Shown here piece by piece: positions 7,725 through 58,412 of a stretch of DNA of 64,000 nucleotides (positions within the stretch are counted from its first letter, which is position 1; every line of letters begins with the position of its first letter). Origin of the DNA: a virus (taxonomy: Duplodnaviria > Heunggongvirae > Uroviricota > Caudoviricetes); the IMG/VR virus record IMGVR_UViG_3300029641_000003; one strand, 5' to 3'. The translations under genes and the position numbers were made by a program. The notes under the pieces were generated by a model. The model saw nothing but the letters and a program-made list of their open reading frames with translations, searched no databases and had not been told where the DNA came from.

Positions 7725-8759
7725 TTAATTAAGTGTGGCTATAATGTCGTTAGCTATCATTCGCGTTGATGCTTTACAGGATACAGAGCGACGGGATGGC
7801 ATAGGATACACCTTGAAGCCATTGCCAACGTAAAGTTCGCGAATGTTAGGCGCACCACTGTTTGTTATCACAATTTTCGCTCCGCGTCTGTGGGCATCCA
7901 CCAGCAGTGACACCAGCCGTTGTTGATCTTCAAACCTAAAGCTATGCCCTGAGTAATTTGTAAATCCGGTAGTGTCGGGCAATGGTTCATAGGGGGGATC
8001 GCAGAAAATCACATCATCATTCCCGGCAGCCTCAATTACACCAGCAAAATCGCCGGACACAAATTCCGAATACTTTGAAATATCGTCAGCCAGGAACGCC
8101 TCCATTTCCGCGAGAGGGAAGTGGGGTGATTTCTGCTTTCCATATCCGACGTTGAACTCTCCTTTACGGTTATAGCGAGTGACGCCATTAAAACAATGAC
8201 GATTGAGATACAGGAACGCCGCTGCATGGTGAAGGGAATCATAAGCACCATTGTTGAATGCATTGCGAACATTCAAAAATGCATCAGCAGAGTTGTAATC
8301 CTGAAAAAAACGATATGCCAGTGTGATAAGAGAATGCCCTTCACGCTGCAATGTCTGATAGAAGTTAATCAGGTCATTATTGATATCGTTCAGCAGGTTG
8401 CTTTTAAATCCGGCATTAGTGAAAACAGCGCCACCTCCAACGAAAGGTTCTATCAACCGTTTTCCGTGGGGCAGGTGTTCGAAGATAATGGGCAGTGCAG
8501 AAAATTTGCCGCCGACCCACTTAAAGACTGGGCGATCAAATTCGTCCTCCGAGCGAATACGTCGCATATGGCTGATAGTGGCTTCCGCCGCAGGACGATG
8601 ATTGTCGCTATAAGAAATAAATTTAGCACCAATATCAGCCACGGATTCCCTCCTTATTTGCTTCAAATACAGCTCTTGCAAAACCGTAAGGTGTCGCGCT
8701 ACGAAAATTCGCTCTTTCAGGCCCTGGCGGTGCCTTGTGTATTCGGTTATCTGGATCAC
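7725..8759 (-). CDS. Dam-like N6-adenine DNA methyltransferase (start uncertain, possibly ATG at 8567)
   Basis: KWVGGKF, FVGGGAV (SAM motif), NRHCFNGVTRYN, DPPY catalytic motif; recalled E. coli Dam similarity begins at about residue 75 of the ORF. Confidence 0.8.
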   Translation of the reverse strand: MIQITEYTRHRQGLKERIFVARHLTVLQELYLKQIRRESVADIGAKFISYSDNHRPAAEATISHMRRIRSEDEFDRPVFKWVGGKFSALPIIFEHLPHGKRLIEPFVGGGAVFTNAGFKSNLLNDINNDLINFYQTLQREGHSLITLAYRFFQDYNSADAFLNVRNAFNNGAYDSLHHAAAFLYLNRHCFNGVTRYNRKGEFNVGYGKQKSPHFPLAEMEAFLADDISKYSEFVSGDFAGVIEAAGNDDVIFCDPPYEPLPDTTGFTNYSGHSFRFEDQQRLVSLLVDAHRRGAKIVITNSGAPNIRELYVGNGFKVYPMPSRRSVSCKASTRMIANDIIATLN

Positions 8760-9441
8760 CTAACGACTTGTCGATTCGCGGAGTTGGCATGATGAATCCT
8801 TGCCCGCTCCACAGGCATGTTTTTTTGGTGTAATTGTCTTCCTTGCAATATGCAGTGAAGTGATAAGGATGGAATATGTGATCAGGTTTACGCCAGAATG
8901 TCGATATTTGGCTGACCGGGTTTTCAATCATGTACGGGCAACCAATCATCTTTGCAATGTCGTAACACTGCCAGACAACCTGCATTGCTTTGAACTGGAA
9001 AACCGGATCTTTTTTTGCTTTATCTGCGAACCAGCGTGCGCCAGATACAGCCAGGTCAGTACATGGAGGGAAACCGGCTAAAAATACAACTCTGTGCAAA
9101 TTTTTCCGAAGGAAATTGTAGACCTCATCACTGTCAATAATTGCGCTGATACGTGTGAGTACAGCACCTGACTCCATCAATTGGCTGCCGGACTCCTGGT
9201 GTTGCGGATCGACAATGACTGCATCAATGCCGTGTTCCAGCCAGGGGGAAACCATATTCCCTGTATAATCACAAAGACTCACCGCCAGCGGTCGGTTATT
9301 AATGCTCTGCTTCACCGCCAATGGCCTCCACCAGCGAGCTAAACATCGCGGATAATTCGCTTGTGAACAGAATGAAGTCAGCATCAAATCGCTGGGCAAC
9401 ATCTTCACGGTCGATGTCATCGTTCTGGTCATAGAGATCAT
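8635..9441 (-). CDS. divergent C5-cytosine methyltransferase-like protein
   Basis: Motif IV-like GFPPCTDLAVSG and motif VI-like ENP; motif I degenerate (LCDYTGNM); overlaps the Dam-like ORF by 125 nt and rdgC by 143 nt in other frames. Confidence 0.4.
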   Translation of the reverse strand: MISMTRTMTSTVKMLPSDLMLTSFCSQANYPRCLARWWRPLAVKQSINNRPLAVSLCDYTGNMVSPWLEHGIDAVIVDPQHQESGSQLMESGAVLTRISAIIDSDEVYNFLRKNLHRVVFLAGFPPCTDLAVSGARWFADKAKKDPVFQFKAMQVVWQCYDIAKMIGCPYMIENPVSQISTFWRKPDHIFHPYHFTAYCKEDNYTKKTCLWSGQGFIMPTPRIDKSLGDPDNRIHKAPPGPERANFRSATPYGFARAVFEANKEGIRG

Positions 9442-10213
9442 CGCAAAACGTCAGTGCTTTGATGCTCATGTCATCGTTTAACCTGAAGGTCGCGCGGTCC
9501 TGCCAGTTGATTGCAACCGTTGTTGCAACTTTTCCGGCTTCAATATGAGTCATTATTTCCTCTGACTGTAGGTCTACTTTCTTGCAACGAACTGCGCCGC
9601 CGTCATCGAACAGAGATTTCAATATGGCTTCTTCGCCTGCTTTAAAGCCTTGAGGAAATGTTGACTTGAACCATTCGGTCATAGTCATTTCGAGCGGTTC
9701 TATCGGCGTGAATGGAATCACTGGCAGGCTGCCAAGTGATTTACGTAAGAGCGCCAGCATTTCTTCTGCTTTTCTGGCGCTGGAAGCTTCTACGAAGACC
9801 AGATAGTTGTCGCGATCAATAAGGATTCGCGACAATGATTTGCGAGTGAATGCGCGAGGCAACAAAGAGTGGAGAACTTCATCCTTCAGGGTGTTTTTTT
9901 CCGACTTCTTCAGCTTACGAGATTGCTCATTTTCGAGCTTTTCCACTTTTTTCTGCACTTCCTCCTTAATGACATGAGAGGGCAGGAGCTTAATTTCTCG
10001 CTGTTGCTGGAGAAGTAGAAAACCGTGGTATTCATGGATCAGGTTGTCAGCCAGCACCGGCACCCATCCGACTTTTGCCATTTCTTGTGATGCGCATGGA
10101 GTGAATGTGAATTGGCTTAAGGCATCACTAACGGTGGTTGAGTCCAGTTTTATTTCGCGGGCAAGGCGATAGACGTATATGTTTTTAAAGGCGACTAATC
10201 TCATGTTTCGCAA
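9299..10213 (-). CDS. rdgC: RdgC recombination-associated protein (ATG probably at 10204)
   Basis: FTPC, KDEVLHSLLPRAF, ALLRKSLGSLPV, DIDREDVAQRFDADFIL, GGEA match recalled E. coli RdgC along the full length. Confidence 0.85.
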   Translation of the reverse strand: MRNMRLVAFKNIYVYRLAREIKLDSTTVSDALSQFTFTPCASQEMAKVGWVPVLADNLIHEYHGFLLLQQQREIKLLPSHVIKEEVQKKVEKLENEQSRKLKKSEKNTLKDEVLHSLLPRAFTRKSLSRILIDRDNYLVFVEASSARKAEEMLALLRKSLGSLPVIPFTPIEPLEMTMTEWFKSTFPQGFKAGEEAILKSLFDDGGAVRCKKVDLQSEEIMTHIEAGKVATTVAINWQDRATFRLNDDMSIKALTFCDDLYDQNDDIDREDVAQRFDADFILFTSELSAMFSSLVEAIGGEAEH

Positions 10214-20448: not shown

Positions 20449-21249
20449 ATTGGCAGCCTCCTTTGACTAAGTTAAGGAGCTACCGCGTGAGGTTCCAATC
20501 TCAATGGCGGTAGCACTGACTGGGTTGGAACTACCGGCGTCAAAGGGAACCGGCCTGCCTTTCGGCAGCCCAGCCAGCACTACCATTGATCTCTGAGCTA
20601 AACGCTACGTATGGCTGTGCGATGGCATGACACAAAAAAAGACGCTTTCGGCGTCTGTGTCGCCTTTGACATTATCCGGGGTTCCAATCCCGGCACCCGT
20701 TTTTCTAAGGTGCCGTAGAAATATACCCCACGATAATGCCAGGGCGCAACAGTCAGTATTTTATGCTTTGGCAGATTTCTTTCGGGCTTGCTTGCAGGCG
20801 TAGGCCATTGCTTTAGCTTTCACTTCATCCAGCTTTCCGGTGATCACTTCTTTTCCGAGAGTGACAAACCAGTCATAGCAACCGCCAGTGATGTTCTGGA
20901 TTTGAAAGTTGAGATAGCGAACGGTCATTTTGACACCCCCAGCGCGAGTAAAGAATGCAGATTATCGCGTGAGTGGCGGACAACGAGTGATGGGAAAAGA
21001 CAGTAGCTGTTCATAGTGTAGTGACTCCTTGCTTTCGGAGCCGCCATCGACTGTTCCACGGTCTGGTGGCGGCGCAATAAAGGTTGGAACACCGTGAGTC
21101 AACGGGGGCTTTTCAGCCACCTATATTGCACCGCCATTGGTATGGCGGCGGCAATCATACGAAAAACCAAACGGTTTGTCTCAAAAAGTTGACCGGTGTA
21201 CCAATCGGTTGTGAATGTACAACGGCGAATTTCACAATTCAACTTAAAA
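20449..21249 (-). other. structured untranslated leader between operator and icd-like gene; candidate c4-like antisense RNA region
   Basis: About 800 bp with no credible ORF, several hairpins (GCTACCGC...GCGGTAGC; CTGCC-TTTC-GGCAG) and an internal intrinsic terminator (GACGCCGAAAGCGTC plus T7) at 20630-20665. Confidence 0.3.
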
Positions 21250-36413: not shown

Positions 36414-36447
36414 CTAACTTTAAATAATGCCAATTATTTAAAGTTAG
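36414..36447. other. lox-like recombination site (34 bp)
   Basis: CTAACTTTAAATA-ATGCCAAT-TATTTAAAGTTAG: perfect 13-bp inverted arms, 8-bp asymmetric spacer, 150 bp upstream of cre; 9 of 13 arm positions equal to loxP. Confidence 0.65.
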
Positions 36448-37697: not shown

Positions 37698-37721
37698 AGC
37701 CCCGAATCGCCGGGGCTTTTA
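37698..37721 (+). terminator. intrinsic terminator after c1-position gene
   Basis: AGCCCCG-AATCGC-CGGGGCT followed by TTTT. Confidence 0.55.
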
Positions 37722-39227
37722 AATGTCAATATCAGGAATATCCACTTCTGCCAACACCTGATCGCGGAATGTTGCGAGTTCTGCGCCAATGTCTTCATTA
37801 GCAGGCACGTAATCCACCAGCATAGTGAAGCAGTAGGTATCCCATCTGTCCGGCGACTTGATGTTTAACTTCTGCCGCATGTGCTCCTTGCGCATCATCG
37901 CTACCTTCCCTTCTTCGTTAAGCATATACGGGATTTTTGATGCCTGATCTGCGGTTTTGGGGTCACTATCGATACGCATACGCCCGGATTTAATGGCATC
38001 CCCTGCCATAATATTGGCGTAAGCACGCTGATTGACAAAGCGTTCTCTGTCTCTTAGCGCAAACATAGGCTTACCCCAACGGATGCGAACGGGATTAGCA
38101 CCACGGCGGACAAGCTGCGCACACGTATCTGAACCAAAGCCATCAGCATCCACAGCAATGGTGATGTTCGGGTATTTATCAGGAGTGCATTCGTTATAGA
38201 TAAAGTCGGCAAAAGCCAACGGGTCCATAGTGCCTGGCATCTCCAGTATCTTAAAGTTCACAACGCGTCGTTTCTCACGATAACCGGATACTTTGCATAT
38301 ATTGAGCACCGATTTGTCGCGACCATTACCGACGTCAGCGGTCGCTACCCAGCCCCAATCTTTCTCCAGCAACACTTTACGCCGTGCGGCGCGGTCGCAC
38401 TCATCACGACCAAGCAAATACCCGTTAATTGCACGCGGGAACTGGCCCAGCACCTTAACCATGTACTCCAGCGAATCCCTGCCGCCGTACTCAAGCAATT
38501 TCTCACGAATAAAGCTCGGTTCAACGAATGGTGATTCTTCAGAGTTAAGGACTATTGCCGTCCAGACACCTTCCGGATTGCCTTCTGCCTTTGCCCTTGA
38601 ATGGTGAGATTCATAAAAGTAACCGCTTGGACGCGTAGGCTGGGAAAGCATGAGCATACGGTTATCTTTCTGCGTTAACGCCCCCGTCATGACGTTAATC
38701 GCCTTATCGGATATGCCCGATGCTTCATCAAGGATTAGCAGTAAATGCTCCGCGTGCTCCCCCGCCAGTGCCTCTTCGTTACCGAGTCGATAACCTTTAC
38801 AGAGCACTTCCCATATCCCTTTACGGGAACGCTCATAAAACATGGTGTCAGACAGGACAAAATAGGTCTGTAACCAGCCGTGGCGCTTAACAGCATTCGC
38901 CCAAAACTGTTTCACGTATTTGAATACGCCTGTTTTTACCTGGCCTATTTTGTTCGCAACAATAATGACGCGGGCGTCGGGGAACAGGATCATAAAAATT
39001 AGTAGCAACATCGCGGTAAGGGACGACTTACCCGTTCCGTGTCCGGACGTAACGGTCGTCCTGCTCCCCGTCTCCTGCACTGACTGAATGATCTGCTGCT
39101 GCTGGTGGGAGGGGAACATCCCAAAAATATCGACAACCGCCTGGGTAAAGTTGTATCGATACCTGATAACCATATCGCGCCAACGTGGATCACTGGTGAC
39201 GCACTTAATCTTACGACCACCAGCCAT
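37719..39227 (-). CDS. pacB: PacB terminase large subunit
   Basis: 502 aa; Walker A GHGTGKSS, LLLILDEASGI Walker B, C-terminal nuclease-like region with acidic residues. Confidence 0.85.
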   Translation of the reverse strand: MAGGRKIKCVTSDPRWRDMVIRYRYNFTQAVVDIFGMFPSHQQQQIIQSVQETGSRTTVTSGHGTGKSSLTAMLLLIFMILFPDARVIIVANKIGQVKTGVFKYVKQFWANAVKRHGWLQTYFVLSDTMFYERSRKGIWEVLCKGYRLGNEEALAGEHAEHLLLILDEASGISDKAINVMTGALTQKDNRMLMLSQPTRPSGYFYESHHSRAKAEGNPEGVWTAIVLNSEESPFVEPSFIREKLLEYGGRDSLEYMVKVLGQFPRAINGYLLGRDECDRAARRKVLLEKDWGWVATADVGNGRDKSVLNICKVSGYREKRRVVNFKILEMPGTMDPLAFADFIYNECTPDKYPNITIAVDADGFGSDTCAQLVRRGANPVRIRWGKPMFALRDRERFVNQRAYANIMAGDAIKSGRMRIDSDPKTADQASKIPYMLNEEGKVAMMRKEHMRQKLNIKSPDRWDTYCFTMLVDYVPANEDIGAELATFRDQVLAEVDIPDIDI

Positions 39228-40591
39228 TAGTCATCCTCCGGCTGGTCTATCGCAATCTCGTCATCTACAGCATCAAAACCGGTATCCCCCGCGTCATAAT
39301 CACCGTAGATATCAGCCGTGGCGGAAGGGTCTATATTCAGGTCTTCATCATTGGCCTCAAATTCACCGGCTTTACGTTCTCCGTTCCGGTCGTAATCCCC
39401 CATCCCAAGCCTATCAACGATTTTCGCTACTTCAGCCCGGCGTTGTGCAAGCCATTGTGGGAGTCCAGCTTGTTGCTCGGCAAACTGCTTCGCCTCTTTA
39501 TCCAGTTGCTCATCATCAACATCGTTAACGTCAGAAACCGGAGGCTCCAGAAGTGAGATCGCTTTTGCCGCTCGTGCCGCCAGGATAGCCGGGACACTGA
39601 CGCCCTGCCGCTCGATATATTCAGCAACACCTATATCATCCAGCTCCTCGCGCTCACGCATACGTATAGCGGCGGCGATAACTCTGGCGGCGCGTGCGTC
39701 AGCGCCAATGCGATACTCAATCTCCTTGCCACGCTGCTCGGCTTGTAGGCGGGCAATCGCCAGTTTTTCTCTGGCCTCAGCCTCCCTGAATGCCTGCTGA
39801 CGCGCGCCCTGCGCAAGTTTTTCATCCCCCTGGCGTAGCTTCTGCTCGTTCTGATAGATGGCTGCCAGCCTGGTGATAAAGTCATTCATGTAGTAGGCAG
39901 CATCGCTGATCAGTCCGAGAAGACGTTGCCCTGGATGCATCCCCTCTGGCTGTGTATCACCGAGGGCATCAATCTCTTCCTGTAGTCGCTCCGCTTCCTG
40001 GTCAACGATAGCCTGATACTGAATTGCTCGTTCCTGCGCCATCTGTATCGCAAGTCGTAAATGTTCAGTCGCGCCGTTCTTCATCATCTCGCGGGCGACG
40101 TTGGTGGCAGGCAAAGTGGCGCTTTGAGCTGATGAATCAGGGATCATTTGCAATGATCCCTTGTTTCGTTGGGCTTTTTCGCTGCTTTTAGGGATCATTT
40201 CTCCCATTTCATCACAAAATGATCCCTTTACATCCTTGTGTATCTTGTTGTTATTATTTGGCTTTTCTTTGTGATCCGCATTTTGTTTTTGCGGCATGGC
40301 GCGGAACCGTCCACCAGCTAACGGTTTGTCAGTTTTTGTAAATTCTGTGCTTTTATCAGCCTTTTTTTGCTCTTTTTTTGAGCCGGTGGCGCTGCTTTTT
40401 GCGCGCTGTTTTGTACTTTTCCCGGCAGCCTTAGCTTTCGCCTTAACCTCATTTTTTTTCATATTGAGATGCTTTCTGGCGGTGTTAAAGCTGAGGTCAT
40501 GCTGCTCGCAATATTCTTTTATGGTGATCCCGGTTTCTTCTCTTAACTCCAGGAACTTAGCTCGATGCGCTTCCCAGTTAATTAACGTCAT
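39227..40591 (-). CDS. pacA: PacA terminase small subunit
   Basis: N-terminal HTH (ITIKEYCEQHDLSFNTARKHL), start overlaps lpa-like stop, stop overlaps pacB start; pac-like GATC cluster inside 5' third. Confidence 0.7.
   Translation of the reverse strand: MTLINWEAHRAKFLELREETGITIKEYCEQHDLSFNTARKHLNMKKNEVKAKAKAAGKSTKQRAKSSATGSKKEQKKADKSTEFTKTDKPLAGGRFRAMPQKQNADHKEKPNNNNKIHKDVKGSFCDEMGEMIPKSSEKAQRNKGSLQMIPDSSAQSATLPATNVAREMMKNGATEHLRLAIQMAQERAIQYQAIVDQEAERLQEEIDALGDTQPEGMHPGQRLLGLISDAAYYMNDFITRLAAIYQNEQKLRQGDEKLAQGARQQAFREAEAREKLAIARLQAEQRGKEIEYRIGADARAARVIAAAIRMREREELDDIGVAEYIERQGVSVPAILAARAAKAISLLEPPVSDVNDVDDEQLDKEAKQFAEQQAGLPQWLAQRRAEVAKIVDRLGMGDYDRNGERKAGEFEANDEDLNIDPSATADIYGDYDAGDTGFDAVDDEIAIDQPEDD
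40139..40226. other. candidate pac packaging site with four GATC heptamers
   Basis: GGGATCATT-TGC-AATGATCCC palindrome (40140-40160) and GGGATCATTT...AAATGATCCC (40190-40227), two pairs flanking a 30-bp core inside pacA. Confidence 0.5.
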
Positions 40592-40980
40592 AGGGAAGCC
40601 TCACGTTTTTTCACAGCGGCGTTCCATAGCTGGTTAGTCATCGCCACCAACTGACGCTGCTCCTTTCGTAATTGAGCTTCTATCTTTCGGTTGGTGTTTT
40701 TCACCAACAGCCGACCGAATTCAGGAGTGCGCCCGCGCACCTTGAACTGGTATCCATTCAGGCCATGTAACCAATATTTCCGGGGGTATACGCGGTCGTC
40801 TATTTCGCAAATGGCACGACTGGAACGAACAAAAAAACGTATGATGTTATTTACGTTTACGCGCGACACATGAAGGTGAGGATATTGTGCTTTTGCACGG
40901 CTGGTGATTTCGGTGACCGTCAGATAGCAGTCAGCCCTGATCATGATATCCGCTATTTCGGCGCTACTGATTTGCTCCAT
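40588..40980 (-). CDS. Lpa-like late promoter activator (by position upstream of pacA)
   Basis: 130-aa ORF overlapping pacA start; operator pair 70 bp upstream. Confidence 0.4.
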   Translation of the reverse strand: MEQISSAEIADIMIRADCYLTVTEITSRAKAQYPHLHVSRVNVNNIIRFFVRSSRAICEIDDRVYPRKYWLHGLNGYQFKVRGRTPEFGRLLVKNTNRKIEAQLRKEQRQLVAMTNQLWNAAVKKREASL

Positions 40981-42497: not shown

Positions 42498-42573
42498 TGG
42501 TGGCCCCTACCGGACTTGAACCGGTGACCGTGCGATTATGAGTCGCCCGCTCTAACCACTGAGCTAAAGGGCC
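42498..42573 (-). tRNA. tRNA-Ile (anticodon CAU, ileX-like)
   Basis: 76 nt GGCCCTTTAGCTCAGTGGTTAGAGCGGGCGACTCATAATCGC...GGTTCAAGTCCGGTAGGGGCCACCA; cloverleaf with CAU anticodon and encoded CCA; near-identical to E. coli ileX as recalled. Confidence 0.8.
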
Positions 42574-42710
42574 AGATTACTGTTAATTACGCTTACGCTT
42601 TTTGCCAGAACCGCGTAAGGCTTTTGCCGCTTGCTCTACCCCGTATGCAACCACCAGCAGAAACAATAATGTCCACTCCGGGTTTTTATCGGCAAACGCC
42701 CAAAAATTCA

Positions 42711-42944
42711 TCACTTACAGCCACCTTGCATTTCCTCGGATAATTCATTGACTTTAGTGCTCAATAAGTAATCAAAGTAAAGATAAAACACAAAAGTAAC
42801 GATAGTGCTTAAAGTGTCTGAAATTGCGTATTTCAGCTCAGGAAGCATGACAAAGCAGACAAATAGCGGAAGAAATAACTGCACTATGCACAGACTCTCC
42901 TTCCACAACCATCTATATCTGAAGTCTGACAACAAAAACTCCAT
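42711..42944 (-). CDS. small membrane protein (77 aa)
   Basis: Hydrophobic segments; stop overlaps start (TGATG) of a further 41-aa hydrophobic ORF at 42583-42711. Confidence 0.35.
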   Translation of the reverse strand: MEFLLSDFRYRWLWKESLCIVQLFLPLFVCFVMLPELKYAISDTLSTIVTFVFYLYFDYLLSTKVNELSEEMQGGCK

Positions 42945-43194
42945 TGCTTGAAACTTTATTAGATTGCGGTGCCTGGTGCCTCCAGGTGACGTTAACCAGT
43001 TAACAATTAACGCCGGGATGTTTGACTTAACTATTAAGGAAAATTGTTTTAACTGTTCCGCGTGCGCTTAGCCGCATTCACCGCAATGGTAAGAGCATTT
43101 GGCTGGCTGGGCGGCGATGACGCCTGTACGCATTTGGTGATCCGGTTCTGCTTCCGGCATTCGCTTAATTAGCCAAATACTCTTAACGTTGCGC

Positions 43195-43281
43195 TGGCGG
43201 AGAGTAATGGAATCGAACCATCATCGCTTGCGCAATGGGACGGTTTTCAAGACCGCTTGAGCACCATGCTCCCTACTCTCC
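43195..43281 (-). tRNA. tRNA-like gene, type II (long variable arm), possible tRNA-Ser(UGA)
   Basis: GGAGAGT/ACTCTCC 7-bp acceptor stem, discriminator G plus CCA, T-arm GATGG-TTCGATT-CCATT, anticodon loop CTTGAAA; D-arm atypical. Confidence 0.4.
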
Positions 43282-43529
43282 AGTGATTGTGGTGGTCGGT
43301 ACTGATCTCCGACTGCGCCTCTTTTTTTCATAGCCCATAAGGCCGGTCAGTGCGCTTGATGACTGAGGCATCGATATTTACTACGCCGCCTCGTTGCCAT
43401 AGGGCGGACTTGCGCGCCAGCAACGCGCATTCACCACAACGGAAAGAGCATTTATGGCTCGCATCGCGGGAAGCGGGAAAAAACCCACGGTAGAGAGTCG
43501 AACTCTACAAATGCTCTTACCTGTTGTGT

Positions 43530-43605
43530 TGGTGCCGGTTAACGGACTCGAACCGCTGACATCCTGCTTACAAGGCAGGCGCTCTACCAACTGAGCTAAA
43601 CCGGC
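43530..43605 (-). tRNA. tRNA-Thr (anticodon UGU)
   Basis: GCCGGTTTAGCTCAGTTGGTAGAGC...CTTGTAA...GGTTCGAGTCCGTTAACCGGCACCA canonical cloverleaf. Confidence 0.85.
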
Positions 43606-43607
43606 AT

Positions 43608-43682
43608 TGGCGATGGTGGATGGATTCGAACCACCGACCAGTTGGTTAACAGCCAACTGCTCTACCACTGAGCTACACCATC
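43608..43682 (-). tRNA. tRNA-Asn (anticodon GUU)
   Basis: GATGGTGTAGCTCAGTGGTAGAGC...CTGTTAA...GGTTCGAATCCATCCACCATCGCCA; 2 nt from tRNA-Thr. Confidence 0.85.
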
Positions 43683-56867: not shown

Positions 56868-57196
56868 AGTTACGGCCTCGTAAGTTGATAAACAACCTGC
56901 GACCCGCTGTCAAACAGGTGGCAGGACGTGACAGGGTTGACAGACTGGCACTTACGAAACCAGCAGGCCGAAGCCTCCCCATCACGCCCCACCATAATTC
57001 GGGCGTAACGTGGTTTTACGGACACAAAAATACCGCAATATCGGAAATGTGCGGTTGTCCGCGTAAGTATTCAGGCTGTCAAACCTGGTCGCAGAATTTG
57101 CTACGACGGCATGAATATAAGCCTGAACATTAGAAAGATCAACAGAATTTTTATCAAATGCTGTTTTTTAGTGACAATGTAAATCATACATTCTTG
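56868..57196 (-). other. structured untranslated leader, copy 2 (candidate c4-like RNA region)
   Basis: No ORF; hairpin CCGCA...TGCGG followed by U-run ending TTTTTGTGTC, the same tail as in copy 1. Confidence 0.3.
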
Positions 57197-58242: not shown

Positions 58243-58412
58243 CAGATAGTTCCGTGAAAAATCTATCTACCGTATAAATCTATGCCAGTGGATTTATACA
58301 CCCAAAAGCCGCTACTCAGCGGCTTTTGCTTTTTTTGGCAGTCGCTACCGGAGCAGTGACCGCGATCCTACTCGATCACGTGCCGTCGGATCAACAGTGT
58401 ATAAAAACACAC

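What the first reader, a model, noticed from the sequence alone, without database searches (positions are those of the whole stretch)
40139..40226. pac-like site with four GATC heptamers inside pacA, in a genome encoding its own Dam-like methylase
Two inverted pairs of GGGATCA/TGATCCC heptamers flank a 30-bp core within the 5' third of pacA. This matches the logic of the P1 pac site (methylation-sensitive GATC hexamers around the cleavage region) but with a different heptamer. The element also encodes a Dam-like methyltransferase (7725-8759), suggesting self-controlled, methylation-gated packaging.
Basis: partly seen in the sequence, partly recalled or inferred. Interest (0 to 1): 0.5.

Follow-up and report, generated by a model that had tools for sequence, protein, structure and literature searches.

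The report
D6-type phage packaging (pac) site
This is very probably the DNA-packaging start signal of a D6-like plasmid prophage: a re-modelled version of the classic, methylation-sensitive phage P1 pac site, written into the part of the pacA gene that codes for a floppy protein linker. It is expected in kind, but its repeat sequence and layout differ from P1's.

Summary
The window is a D6-like, P1-related phage-plasmid, and the finding lies in pacA (39227-40591, minus strand). The four heptamers are really four exact copies of the 10-mer AGGGATCATT, in two inverted pairs, found nowhere else in 64 kb. GATC density alone is not significant.

Comparison with about 40 pacA homologs shows selection on the DNA, not the protein. 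In a hypervariable linker that is predicted to be disordered, the GATC cores are the conserved islands. They persist through amino-acid changes and one reading-frame change, and Ile is ATC in 16 of 16 cases. Every PacA lineage, including P1 with its mapped pac, has GATC-repeat clusters at this gene position.

D6-type lineages use RGGGATCATT; P1-type lineages use TGATCA. This tracks a Lys/Arg difference in PacA's N-terminal helix.

The claimed methylase is a true Dam-family enzyme, 69.5% identical to the Dam domain of P1 Dmt.

Differences from P1:
- The upstream repeat cluster is missing.
- The gap between the pairs is 28 bp, not about 90.
- There is no IHF consensus.
- At least one more element (40272-40277) and a conserved block (40325-40345) belong to the region.

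The cleavage point and methylation dependence remain untested. Verdict: supported; a new variant of a known kind; modest interest.

The parts
40190..40227 (.). Pair A: convergent AGGGATCATT(T) ... (A)AATGATCCCT, with GATC cores 28 bp apart (pacA sense nt 368 and 396). This is the most conserved part of the site.
   Evidence: Both GATC cores are present in all 11 D6-supergroup pacA genes at 44-100% aa identity, with 27-28 bp spacing. The motif is kept through aa changes KGSF/RRSL/AGSL/EGII and a reading-frame shift in L013.
40139..40161 (.). Pair B: AGGGATCATT-TGC-AATGATCCCT, a 23-bp near-palindrome (sense nt 434 and 447).
   Evidence: The nt-447 element (window 40152-40161, the right arm on the + strand) is universal, 11 of 11, and its 9-nt window has the highest nucleotide identity in the linker, 0.98. 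The nt-434 element (window 40139-40148, the left arm on the + strand) occurs only in the E. coli D6 clade.
40162..40189 (.). The 28-bp spacer between the two pairs. It is a candidate cleavage region by analogy with P1, but unproven.
   Evidence: The sequence is not conserved (mean identity 0.52-0.59). The 55%-identity lineages carry a 12-nt insertion here. The role is inferred only from P1's layout.
40270..40279 (.). Fifth element: GTGATCCGC on the + strand, which reads GCGGATCAC on the pacA sense strand (nt 316).
   Evidence: It is present in every D6-clade haplotype and absent in the 55%-identity group.
40523..40533 (.). Possible sixth element: GGGGATCAC on the sense strand (nt 63), inside the HTH-coding part of pacA.
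   Evidence: It is kept in all D6-clade haplotypes but is absent from most other lineages. Its membership in the site is uncertain.
40325..40345 (.). A second DNA-level conserved block in the linker: sense GAATTTACAAAAACTGACAAA (nt 247-267). It is a candidate accessory or cleavage element.
   Evidence: Wobble positions are invariant while the encoded aa vary (T/I/V/A/D). It lies between the two GATC clusters in the 55%-identity lineages and at the gene position of P1's IHF and cleavage site. It shares TTGTCAGT with the P1 cleavage sequence, but in the opposite orientation. This is a weak lead.
39227..40591 (-). pacA (454 aa), the recognition (small) subunit of the pacase. The pac elements lie in its linker-coding segment.
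   Evidence: It is 74% aa identical to D6 PacA and 20% to P1 PacA over the full length. The AF2 model shows an HTH-like domain at residues 6-42, a disordered stretch at 49-159, and helical rods at 163-395.
37719..39227 (-). pacB (502 aa), the large terminase and nuclease subunit.
   Evidence: It is 92% identical to D6 PacB and 56% to P1 PacB.
7725..8759 (-). Dam-family N6-adenine DNA methyltransferase, orthologous to the Dam domain of P1 Dmt.
   Evidence: Pfam D12 class, E 2e-53. TIGR00571 dam scores 231 bits against a cut-off of 115. E. coli Dam structure E 1.6e-51, with the DPPY motif present. It is 69.5% identical to P1 Dmt and 71% to the D6 adenine methylase.
36415..36446 (.). rox recombination site, the D6 counterpart of P1 lox. 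It lies 3.7 kb from the repeats in the direction of pacA transcription.
   Evidence: It matches D6 rox at 32 of 32 positions. The layout matches P1's pac-pacB-c1-lox.

Best explanation
The cluster is the recognition part of the packaging-initiation (pac) site of this D6-like phage-plasmid.

Proposed mechanism, inferred by homology with P1:
- Late in infection, PacA binds the oriented decamers RGGGATCATT through its N-terminal helix-turn-helix-like domain. It probably binds as paired subunits on the two inverted pairs, plus the extra element at 40272-40277.
- PacB then cuts nearby.
- Headful packaging proceeds in the direction of pacA transcription, towards pacB, c1 and rox.
- Each element has a Dam site at its core. 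As in P1, the methylation state set by host Dam and by the phage's own Dmt-type Dam enzyme is expected to decide whether bound pacase cleaves. That would limit cutting to fully methylated concatemer DNA.

The elements are tolerated inside the gene because they fall in the segment that codes for a disordered, Lys-rich linker.

Shown here: the repeats, their DNA-level conservation, their position relative to P1 pac, the co-variation of motif and PacA clade, and the identity of the methylase.

Inferred only: PacA binding, methylation dependence, the cleavage position and the packaging direction.
For: 1. The exact 10-mer occurs four times and is unique in 64 kb.
2. In an 11-genome codon alignment, the linker has 50 invariant columns out of 345. 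The three universal GATC cores are among them (hypergeometric P = 2e-6, even though one core is scored low because it is frame-shifted in L013).
3. GATC is kept when the amino acids change (KGSF / RRSL / AGSL / EGII; MIP / KIP / MIR / KIR / MIS). It is also kept when the frame changes (L013).
4. Ile is ATC in 16 of 16 cases against a 38% baseline (P about 2e-7). The preceding codon always ends in G. Synonymous identity between these lineages is only 0.42-0.57.
5. Linker GATCs occupy all three frames (15/11/21). Their density is 47 in 3120 nt, against 20 in 7911 nt for the rest of pacA.
6. Twenty-six distinct IMG/VR haplotypes repeat the pattern.
7. P1, whose pac is mapped experimentally, has its 4+3 TGATCA/G hexamers at pacA nt 195-234 and 325-353. 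The Pantoea, Leclercia, Citrobacter, Klebsiella and Enterobacter lineages all have GATC-repeat clusters in the same stretch.
8. The motif type follows the PacA clade. All 10 GGGATCA-type PacAs have NTARK-like Lys and all 7 TGATCA-type have Arg in the third N-terminal helix.
9. The elements lie in the disordered-linker coding region.
10. The Dam ortholog of P1 Dmt is present.
11. P1 pac biology: hexamers with Dam sites, methylation-promoted cleavage, and dmt required in dam- hosts (PMC10028697; PMC12707154).
12. pac-to-rox synteny is like P1's pac-to-lox.
Against: - There is no experimental mapping of termini for this element or, as far as I could find, for D6. Neither D6 GenBank record annotates a pac.
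- The layout departs from P1. The upstream repeat cluster seen in P1 and in the 55%-identity D6-like lineages is absent here. The gap between the pairs is 28 bp rather than about 90.
- No IHF consensus (at most 1 mismatch) is found, although the same scan recovers P1's IHF site.
- The nt-434 element of pair B (window 40139-40148) is clade-specific.
- Two natural haplotypes each lack one element (L041, L045), so no single element is indispensable. Alternatively, those prophages may be defective.
- PacA is only 20% identical to P1 PacA.
- The Lys/Arg correlation is confounded by phylogeny, because it rests on two clades.
Confidence: 0.72

Rival explanations
1. The repeats are a by-product of conserved short peptide motifs (GS[FL], MIP) in the PacA linker, for example docking motifs for PacB or the portal. 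On this reading the DNA has no function of its own.
For: The peptides G-S-F/L and M-I-P do appear as conserved islands in the protein alignment. Disordered linkers often carry short linear motifs (general knowledge).
Against: - GATC survives when the peptide changes (RRSL, EGII, KIP, MIR, KIR, MIS) and when the frame changes.
- Synonymous choice is fixed: 16 of 16 Ile codons are ATC, and the preceding codon always ends in G.
- The two peptide types are encoded by exact reverse-complement 10-mers, which protein selection cannot explain.
- Other lineages place GATC in D-H codons in a third frame.
Confidence: 0.03
2. This is a Dam/SeqA-sensitive regulatory element that is not the pac site. It could be a methylation-dependent control of pacA/pacB expression or of replication timing, with the real pac elsewhere.
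For: Clustered GATCs are classic SeqA and Dam regulatory targets (general knowledge). The D6 clade lacks the bipartite P1 layout and the IHF site.
Against: - No sigma-70-like promoter is found in 39800-40700 on either strand.
- The conserved flanks (RGG...ATT) go beyond what Dam or SeqA need, and they co-vary with the PacA clade.
- The position is the same as P1's mapped pac.
- No other cluster of the motif exists in the 64-kb window. About 30 kb of the element lies outside the window and was not searched.
Confidence: 0.1
3. The inverted repeats act as RNA or DNA hairpins. Examples would be an mRNA structure that modulates pacA translation or stability, or an antisense-strand terminator at pair B.
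For: The sense RNA folds better than shuffles, with z = -3.5 in both the window and D6. Pair B matches a terminator-like pattern on the + strand.
Against: - The predicted pairings differ between the window and D6.
- Arm mutations are not compensated. D6 pair B keeps only a 6-bp stem.
- The 55%-identity lineages have different element orientations and lack the nt-434 element of pair B.
- The terminator-like count is at the chance level, 2 against 1.5 expected, and no + strand gene reads into it.
Confidence: 0.04
4. This is a decaying remnant. The D6 clade lost the upstream cluster, the remaining elements are only partly functional, and packaging is initiated mainly by other sequences, such as the conserved block at 40325-40345 or a site outside pacA.
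For: The upstream cluster is lost. Haplotypes L041 and L045 each lack one element. A separate conserved block exists.
Against: - The D6 clade gained elements (nt 63, 316, 434) rather than only losing them.
- It keeps all six GATCs in 24 of the 26 haplotypes.
- In this window the four decamers are perfect copies, which is the opposite of decay.
- D6 itself is a viable phage (record MF356679).
Confidence: 0.08

Closest known systems
Bacteriophage P1 pac site (161-162 bp inside pacA; HEX4 and HEX3 TGATCA/G hexamers, IHF site, central cleavage; cleavage regulated by Dam methylation)
   Same: - It lies inside the 5' third of pacA, in the linker-coding segment after the N-terminal DNA-binding domain.
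- It is built of short repeats, each with a GATC core.
- The cognate PacA/PacB pacase is encoded at the site.
- The phage encodes a Dmt-type Dam methylase.
- The lpa-pacA-pacB-c1-lox/rox synteny is kept.
   Different: - The repeat unit is an asymmetric, oriented decamer RGGGATCATT, not the hexamer TGATCA/G.
- There are two inverted pairs plus one or two singles, not 4+3 arrays.
- The gap is 28 bp, not about 90.
- There is no upstream cluster and no IHF consensus.
- PacA is only 20% identical.
- Cleavage and methylation dependence are not demonstrated.
pacA region of phage D6 (MF356679 / AY753669) and D6-like plasmid prophages of E. coli and Salmonella
   Same: GATC elements occupy the same six positions (pacA nt 63, 316, 368, 396, 434, 447), in the same orientations and the same gene context. 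The rox site is identical.
   Different: pacA is only 77% nt and 74% aa identical. In this window all four decamers are perfect copies, whereas D6's are degenerate (GAGATCATT, GGGATCTTC). No pac feature is annotated in either D6 record. I could not read the D6 genome paper to see whether the site is discussed there.
D6-like phage-plasmids of Klebsiella, Enterobacter and Raoultella (PacA about 55% identical; L007, L012, L013, L017, L046)
   Same: They have the same decamer type, the same universal elements (window nt 368/396/447 equivalents) and the same conserved TTTACA...TGACA block.
   Different: They keep a P1-like bipartite layout. An upstream cluster (two GGGGATCATT plus one inverted element at nt 157-207) is separated by about 170 bp from the downstream cluster. 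They lack the nt-316 and nt-434 elements.

Membership tests
P1-type pac site | Located within the pacA coding sequence, 5' part | tested here: met
   The elements lie at pacA nt 316-453 of 1365. P1 pac lies at nt 195-353 of 1194.
P1-type pac site | Multiple short repeats, each containing a Dam site (GATC) | tested here: met
   There are five to six elements with GATC cores. The cores are invariant across lineages.
P1-type pac site | Repeat unit is the hexamer TGATCA/G | tested here: not met
   The unit here is RGGGATCATT (as a hexamer, GGATCA / TGATCC). In 64 elements, position -1 is G in 59 and T in only 1.
P1-type pac site | Bipartite layout: 4 + 3 repeats flanking a core of about 90 bp that contains the cleavage site | tested here: not met
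   The layout is two inverted pairs 28 bp apart plus a single element 52 bp upstream. The upstream cluster present in P1 and in the 55%-identity relatives is absent.
P1-type pac site | IHF binding site next to the cleavage point | tested here: not met
   A WATCAANNNNTTR scan at up to 1 mismatch recovers P1's annotated site but finds nothing in the first 560 nt of the window or D6 pacA. A consensus scan is a weak test.
P1-type pac site | Cognate two-subunit pacase (PacA + PacB) encoded at the site | tested here: met
   PacB is 56% identical to P1 PacB. PacA aligns to P1 PacA end to end at 20% identity, E 2e-8. lpa lies upstream.
P1-type pac site | Cleavage depends on adenine methylation, and the phage encodes its own Dam (Dmt) | tested here: inconclusive
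   A Dmt Dam-domain ortholog is present: 69.5% identity, TIGR00571 above its cut-off, DPPY motif. Absolute conservation of GATC relative to its flanks fits a role for methylation. The dependence itself cannot be tested in silico.
P1-type pac site | Site is cut by pacase and starts a headful packaging series | not testable with these tools
   This needs virion DNA end mapping or a cleavage assay.
Dam-family (D12 class) GATC methyltransferase (ORF 7725-8759, minus strand) | D12-class catalytic domain with DPPY motif, scoring above family cut-offs | tested here: met
   Pfam PF02086, E 2e-53. TIGR00571 scores 231 bits against a cut-off of 115, but the protein falls below the E. coli Dam equivalog cut-off (220 against 441). 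The best PDB matches are E. coli Dam and DpnII M1, both GATC enzymes.
Dam-family (D12 class) GATC methyltransferase (ORF 7725-8759, minus strand) | GATC target specificity | not testable with these tools
   Specificity is inferred from 69.5% identity to the P1 Dmt Dam domain and from the closest solved structures. It needs methylome (SMRT or nanopore) data or DpnI/MboI digestion.

The most novel reading that the evidence does not exclude
The E. coli D6 clade has rebuilt the P1-type pac into a compact site that does not need IHF. All recognition elements are oriented decamers in two inverted pairs, within about 140 bp. They are read by a PacA whose specificity has switched from TGATCA to RGGGATCATT (Arg to Lys in the recognition helix), while the Dam-methylation gate is kept. 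This would be a naturally orthogonal pac/pacase pair relative to P1. A sub-variant is that cutting occurs at the separately conserved TTTACA...TGACA block (40325-40345), which would make the site one-sided, unlike P1.
Probability: 0.35. Interest if true: 0.5.

Novelty: new variant of a known kind. Interest (0 to 1): 0.38.

Why it matters
P1 pac is the textbook case of a packaging signal gated by DNA methylation, and it underlies P1 phagemid and transduction tools. A second, diverged version has three uses.

- It gives a natural experiment on how PacA reads its site, through the motif and recognition-helix co-variation.
- It allows tests of which parts of the P1 architecture (bipartite arrays, the IHF bend) are dispensable.
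- It could provide an orthogonal pac/pacase pair for phagemid delivery systems that would not cross-package with P1.

D6-like phage-plasmids are also common in clinical and livestock E. coli and Salmonella, so knowing their pac helps predict what DNA they transduce. It does not open a new field. The mechanism is expected from homology.

Tried and rejected
- GATC density as evidence: rejected. Four GATC in 79 bp is matched by 41% of random placements.
- GTDB species-representative genome scan for pacA relatives: 87 pattern matches, none confirmed. I used the plasmid, IMG/VR and contig look-ups instead.
- Literature:
  - The D6 genome paper (Gilcrease & Casjens 2018, PMC5800970), the P1 genome paper (Lobocka 2004) and Sternberg & Coulby 1990 (PMC54894) are not held.
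  - Full-text searches for a D6 pac or GATC description found nothing relevant. I therefore cannot exclude that the D6 paper already describes these repeats.
- IHF consensus scan: negative here, positive for P1.
- Pfam and NCBIfam have no model for PacA or PacB.
- Foldseek of the PacA model against the PDB: no significant hit. The best matches are non-significant hits to HTH domains of regulators.
- RNA-structure reading: the low free energy is explained by the repeats themselves, and the folds are not conserved.
- Terminator-like match at pair B on the antisense strand: at the chance level and not conserved.
- N-terminally truncated PacA clusters (P0011, 310 members) as possible evidence of DNA ends inside pacA: they start at an internal Met (MAKMIP...). 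They more likely reflect frameshifts or start calls in the poly-A-rich linker. I did not pursue this.
- Contig L044 starts exactly after the GATC at pacA nt 316-319: a single anecdote, given no weight.
- Shared 8-mer TTGTCAGT between the conserved block and the P1 cleavage sequence: found post hoc and in the opposite orientation, so kept only as a lead.
Full report
**What the window is.** The region holding the finding is pacA (39227-40591, minus strand, 454 aa).
- pacB follows it (37719-39227, minus strand) and lpa precedes it (40588-40980, minus strand; Pfam BPP1_LPA, E 4e-50).
- pacA is 77% nt and 74% aa identical to pacA of the plasmid prophage D6. It is 97-99% identical to unnamed 90-94 kb plasmids of Escherichia marmotae and E. 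coli.
- PacB is 92% identical to D6 PacB and 56% to P1 PacB. PacA aligns with P1 PacA end to end, but at only 20% identity.
- An exact copy of the D6 rox site lies at 36415-36446.
- The element is therefore a D6-like member of the P1 group of phage-plasmids, with the P1 order lpa-pacA-pacB-c1-lox/rox.

**The observation.**
- They are in fact four exact copies of a 10-mer, AGGGATCATT, at 40139, 40152 (complement), 40190 and 40218 (complement).
- They form two inverted pairs. Pair B has a 3-nt spacer. Pair A has 11-nt arms with GATC cores 28 bp apart. A 28-bp gap separates the pairs.
- GATC density by itself is not evidence: 41% of random placements give a cluster at least as tight.
- The shared flanks are the evidence. 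Four of the 12 heptamer copies fall within 87 bp, which happened in 0 of 200,000 random placements. The 10-mer has no other exact or 1-mismatch copy in 64 kb, and 2-mismatch copies are at the chance level.
- Two more elements of the same type lie upstream in the gene: TGATCC at 40272-40277 and TGATCCC at 40525-40531.

**Is the DNA or the protein under selection?** I collected pacA loci from plasmids, IMG/VR and public assemblies, spanning 99% down to about 28% PacA identity.
- In the protein alignment the linker after the N-terminal domain is hypervariable. The exceptions are the islands GS[FL], MIP, QMIP and, in other lineages, (G)DH. All of these peptides are spelled by codons that contain GATC, in three different frames.
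- In a codon alignment of 11 D6-supergroup genes, the linker has 345 columns, of which 50 are invariant. The GATC cores at pacA nt 368, 396 and 447 are present in all 11.
- The cores persist while the encoded residues change: KGSF, RRSL, AGSL, SGSS; MIP, KIP, MIR, KIR, MIS. In L013 the motif GGGATCATT sits in another frame and encodes EGII.
- Eight deep lineages have synonymous third-position identity of only 0.42-0.57. In them the Ile codon at the two universal elements is ATC in 16 of 16 cases, against a 38% baseline (P about 2e-7). The preceding codon always ends in G, either ATG or AAG.
- Linker GATCs are six times denser than in the rest of pacA: 47 in 3120 nt against 20 in 7911 nt.
- In this window the two peptide types are encoded by exact reverse-complement 10-mers. 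Protein selection cannot produce that.
- The constraint is on the DNA.

**Relation to P1 pac.**
- The P1 record places the IHF site at pacA nt 256-268 and the cleavage points at nt 276-285. They lie between four TGATCA hexamers (nt 195-234) and three TGATCA/G hexamers (nt 325-353).
- Every other lineage has GATC-repeat clusters in the same stretch:
  - Pantoea has six at an exact 12-nt period plus more downstream.
  - Leclercia and Citrobacter have 2-3 plus 1-2.
  - The 55%-identity Klebsiella and Enterobacter D6-like group has an upstream cluster (nt 157-207) and a downstream cluster (nt 380-471).
- In this window and the whole E. coli/Salmonella D6 clade, the upstream cluster is absent. The downstream cluster has gained elements at nt 316 and 434, plus one at nt 63.
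- All six positions are kept in 24 of the 26 distinct IMG/VR haplotypes. Two haplotypes each lack one element.
- The repeat unit differs by clade. It is R-G-G-GATC-A-T-T in 64 D6-supergroup elements and T-GATC-A in 26 P1-type elements.
- This tracks a residue in the third helix of PacA's N-terminal domain: NTARK-like Lys in all 10 GGGATCA-type proteins and Arg in all 7 TGATCA-type proteins. The correlation is confounded by phylogeny, but it gives a testable lead for specificity.

**Where the elements sit in the protein.** An AlphaFold2 model built on 15 homologs shows three parts:
- a confident three-helix N-terminal domain (residues 6-42);
- a low-confidence, unstructured stretch (residues 49-159);
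- long helices (residues 163-395).

The elements fall at codons 106-151, inside the unstructured stretch. This explains how a gene can carry a dense DNA signal. Fold search gave only non-significant matches to HTH domains.

**The methylase.** ORF 7725-8759 is on the minus strand.
- It is a D12-class enzyme (Pfam E 2e-53). It passes the TIGR00571 dam cut-off and has the DPPY motif.
- It matches E. coli Dam (E 1.6e-51) and DpnII M1 best among solved structures.
- It is 69.5% identical to the Dam domain of P1 Dmt and 71% to the D6 adenine methylase.
- For P1, published summaries state three things. The hexamers carry Dam sites. Further methylation of bound pac promotes cleavage (PMC10028697). dmt is essential in dam- hosts because pac needs Dam methylation (PMC12707154).
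- The same logic is therefore expected here by homology. It is not a new idea, and host Dam would also methylate these sites.

**What differs from P1, and what remains open.**
- No IHF consensus is found here, although the same scan recovers P1's site.
- The gap between the pairs is 28 bp and is not conserved in sequence. A bend may not be needed, but that is inference.
- A second DNA-level conserved block, GAATTTACAAAAACTGACAAA (window 40325-40345), has invariant wobble positions. It lies where P1 has its IHF and cleavage region. In the 55%-identity lineages it lies between the two clusters. It could be an accessory-factor or cleavage element.
- The cut site cannot be placed from sequence.

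**Rivals.**
- Peptide-motif conservation is excluded by the synonymous-site and frame evidence.
- A Dam/SeqA regulatory site is not excluded. However, no promoter-like site is present, and the conserved flanks co-vary with PacA.
- Hairpin readings fail on conservation.
- A decaying remnant is unlikely, given four perfect copies and clade-wide retention.

**Verdict.**
- This is the D6-lineage counterpart of P1 pac: a new variant of a known kind in repeat unit and architecture.
- No pac is annotated in the D6 records, and none is described in the literature I could reach. I could not read the D6 genome paper.
- Interest is modest.

Noticed in passing
window 40325-40345: A conserved DNA block (sense GAATTTACAAAAACTGACAAA) in the otherwise hypervariable pacA linker. 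Its wobble positions are invariant while the amino acids vary. It sits at the gene position of P1's IHF and cleavage region and shares TTGTCAGT with the P1 cleavage sequence, in the opposite orientation.
   Followed up: partly
window 20503-20713 and 56914-57120: Two separate C4 antisense RNA loci (Rfam RF01695, 77 and 70 bits). One has an adjacent isrK-like RNA and the other a c4-a1b1 target element. To my recollection, P1 has a single c4 immunity locus.
   Followed up: no
window 58364-58392: Three GATC sites within 29 bp in an apparently intergenic stretch. They lie just after a terminator-like hairpin (58307-58330) and just before an inverted repeat, CAGTGTATAAAAACACACTG. With 58463, this is the second-densest GATC spot in the window.
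   Followed up: no
window 42498-43682: Four tRNA genes on the minus strand: Met-CAT, Ser-TGA, Thr-TGT and Asn-GTT. This is the same set reported for D6-like plasmid pYU39_89 (PMC6799933).
   Followed up: partly
window 36415-36446: The rox site is 32/32 identical to that of D6, although pacA 3 kb away is only 77% identical. This suggests mosaicism or strong constraint on the Dre/rox module.
   Followed up: partly
L044 (IMGVR_UViG_2537562191_000021) position 1: A 23.6-kb contig from an isolate genome begins exactly after the GATC at pacA nt 316-319 of a D6-type pacA. It could be a library artefact, chance, or a physical DNA end.
   Followed up: partly
L041 and L045 (IMG/VR): Two D6-clade haplotypes each lack one of the six GATC elements (nt 368 and nt 396 respectively). 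They are either defective prophages or evidence of redundancy among the elements.
   Followed up: no
window 7725-8759 (minus), residues 1-58: The Dam-family methylase has an N-terminal extension of about 58-75 aa. D6 shares it, but the P1 Dmt alignment lacks it. The ORF starts at GTG, so the true start is uncertain.
   Followed up: no
window 40588-40591: The lpa stop overlaps the pacA start, so there is no intergenic space. P1 has a 85-bp gap there that holds the late promoter LPpac. The pacA promoter of D6-type elements must lie elsewhere.
   Followed up: no
pacA linker, e.g. window 40360-40460; protein clusters P0011 and P0024: The linker is rich in A-runs. Large clusters of N-terminally truncated or frameshifted PacA annotations exist in public data (P0011 has 310 members and starts at MAKMIP). 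These may be homopolymer sequencing errors or real frameshift variants.
   Followed up: partly
L011 (CP060164.1, labelled Acinetobacter venetianus): This Pantoea-type pacA has in-frame stops in its 5' part, and its host label is outside the Enterobacterales. It may be a pseudogene or a mislabelled plasmid.
   Followed up: no
window 9299-10213 (minus): An RdgC-family protein (Pfam E 1e-100) is encoded close to the methylase.
   Followed up: no
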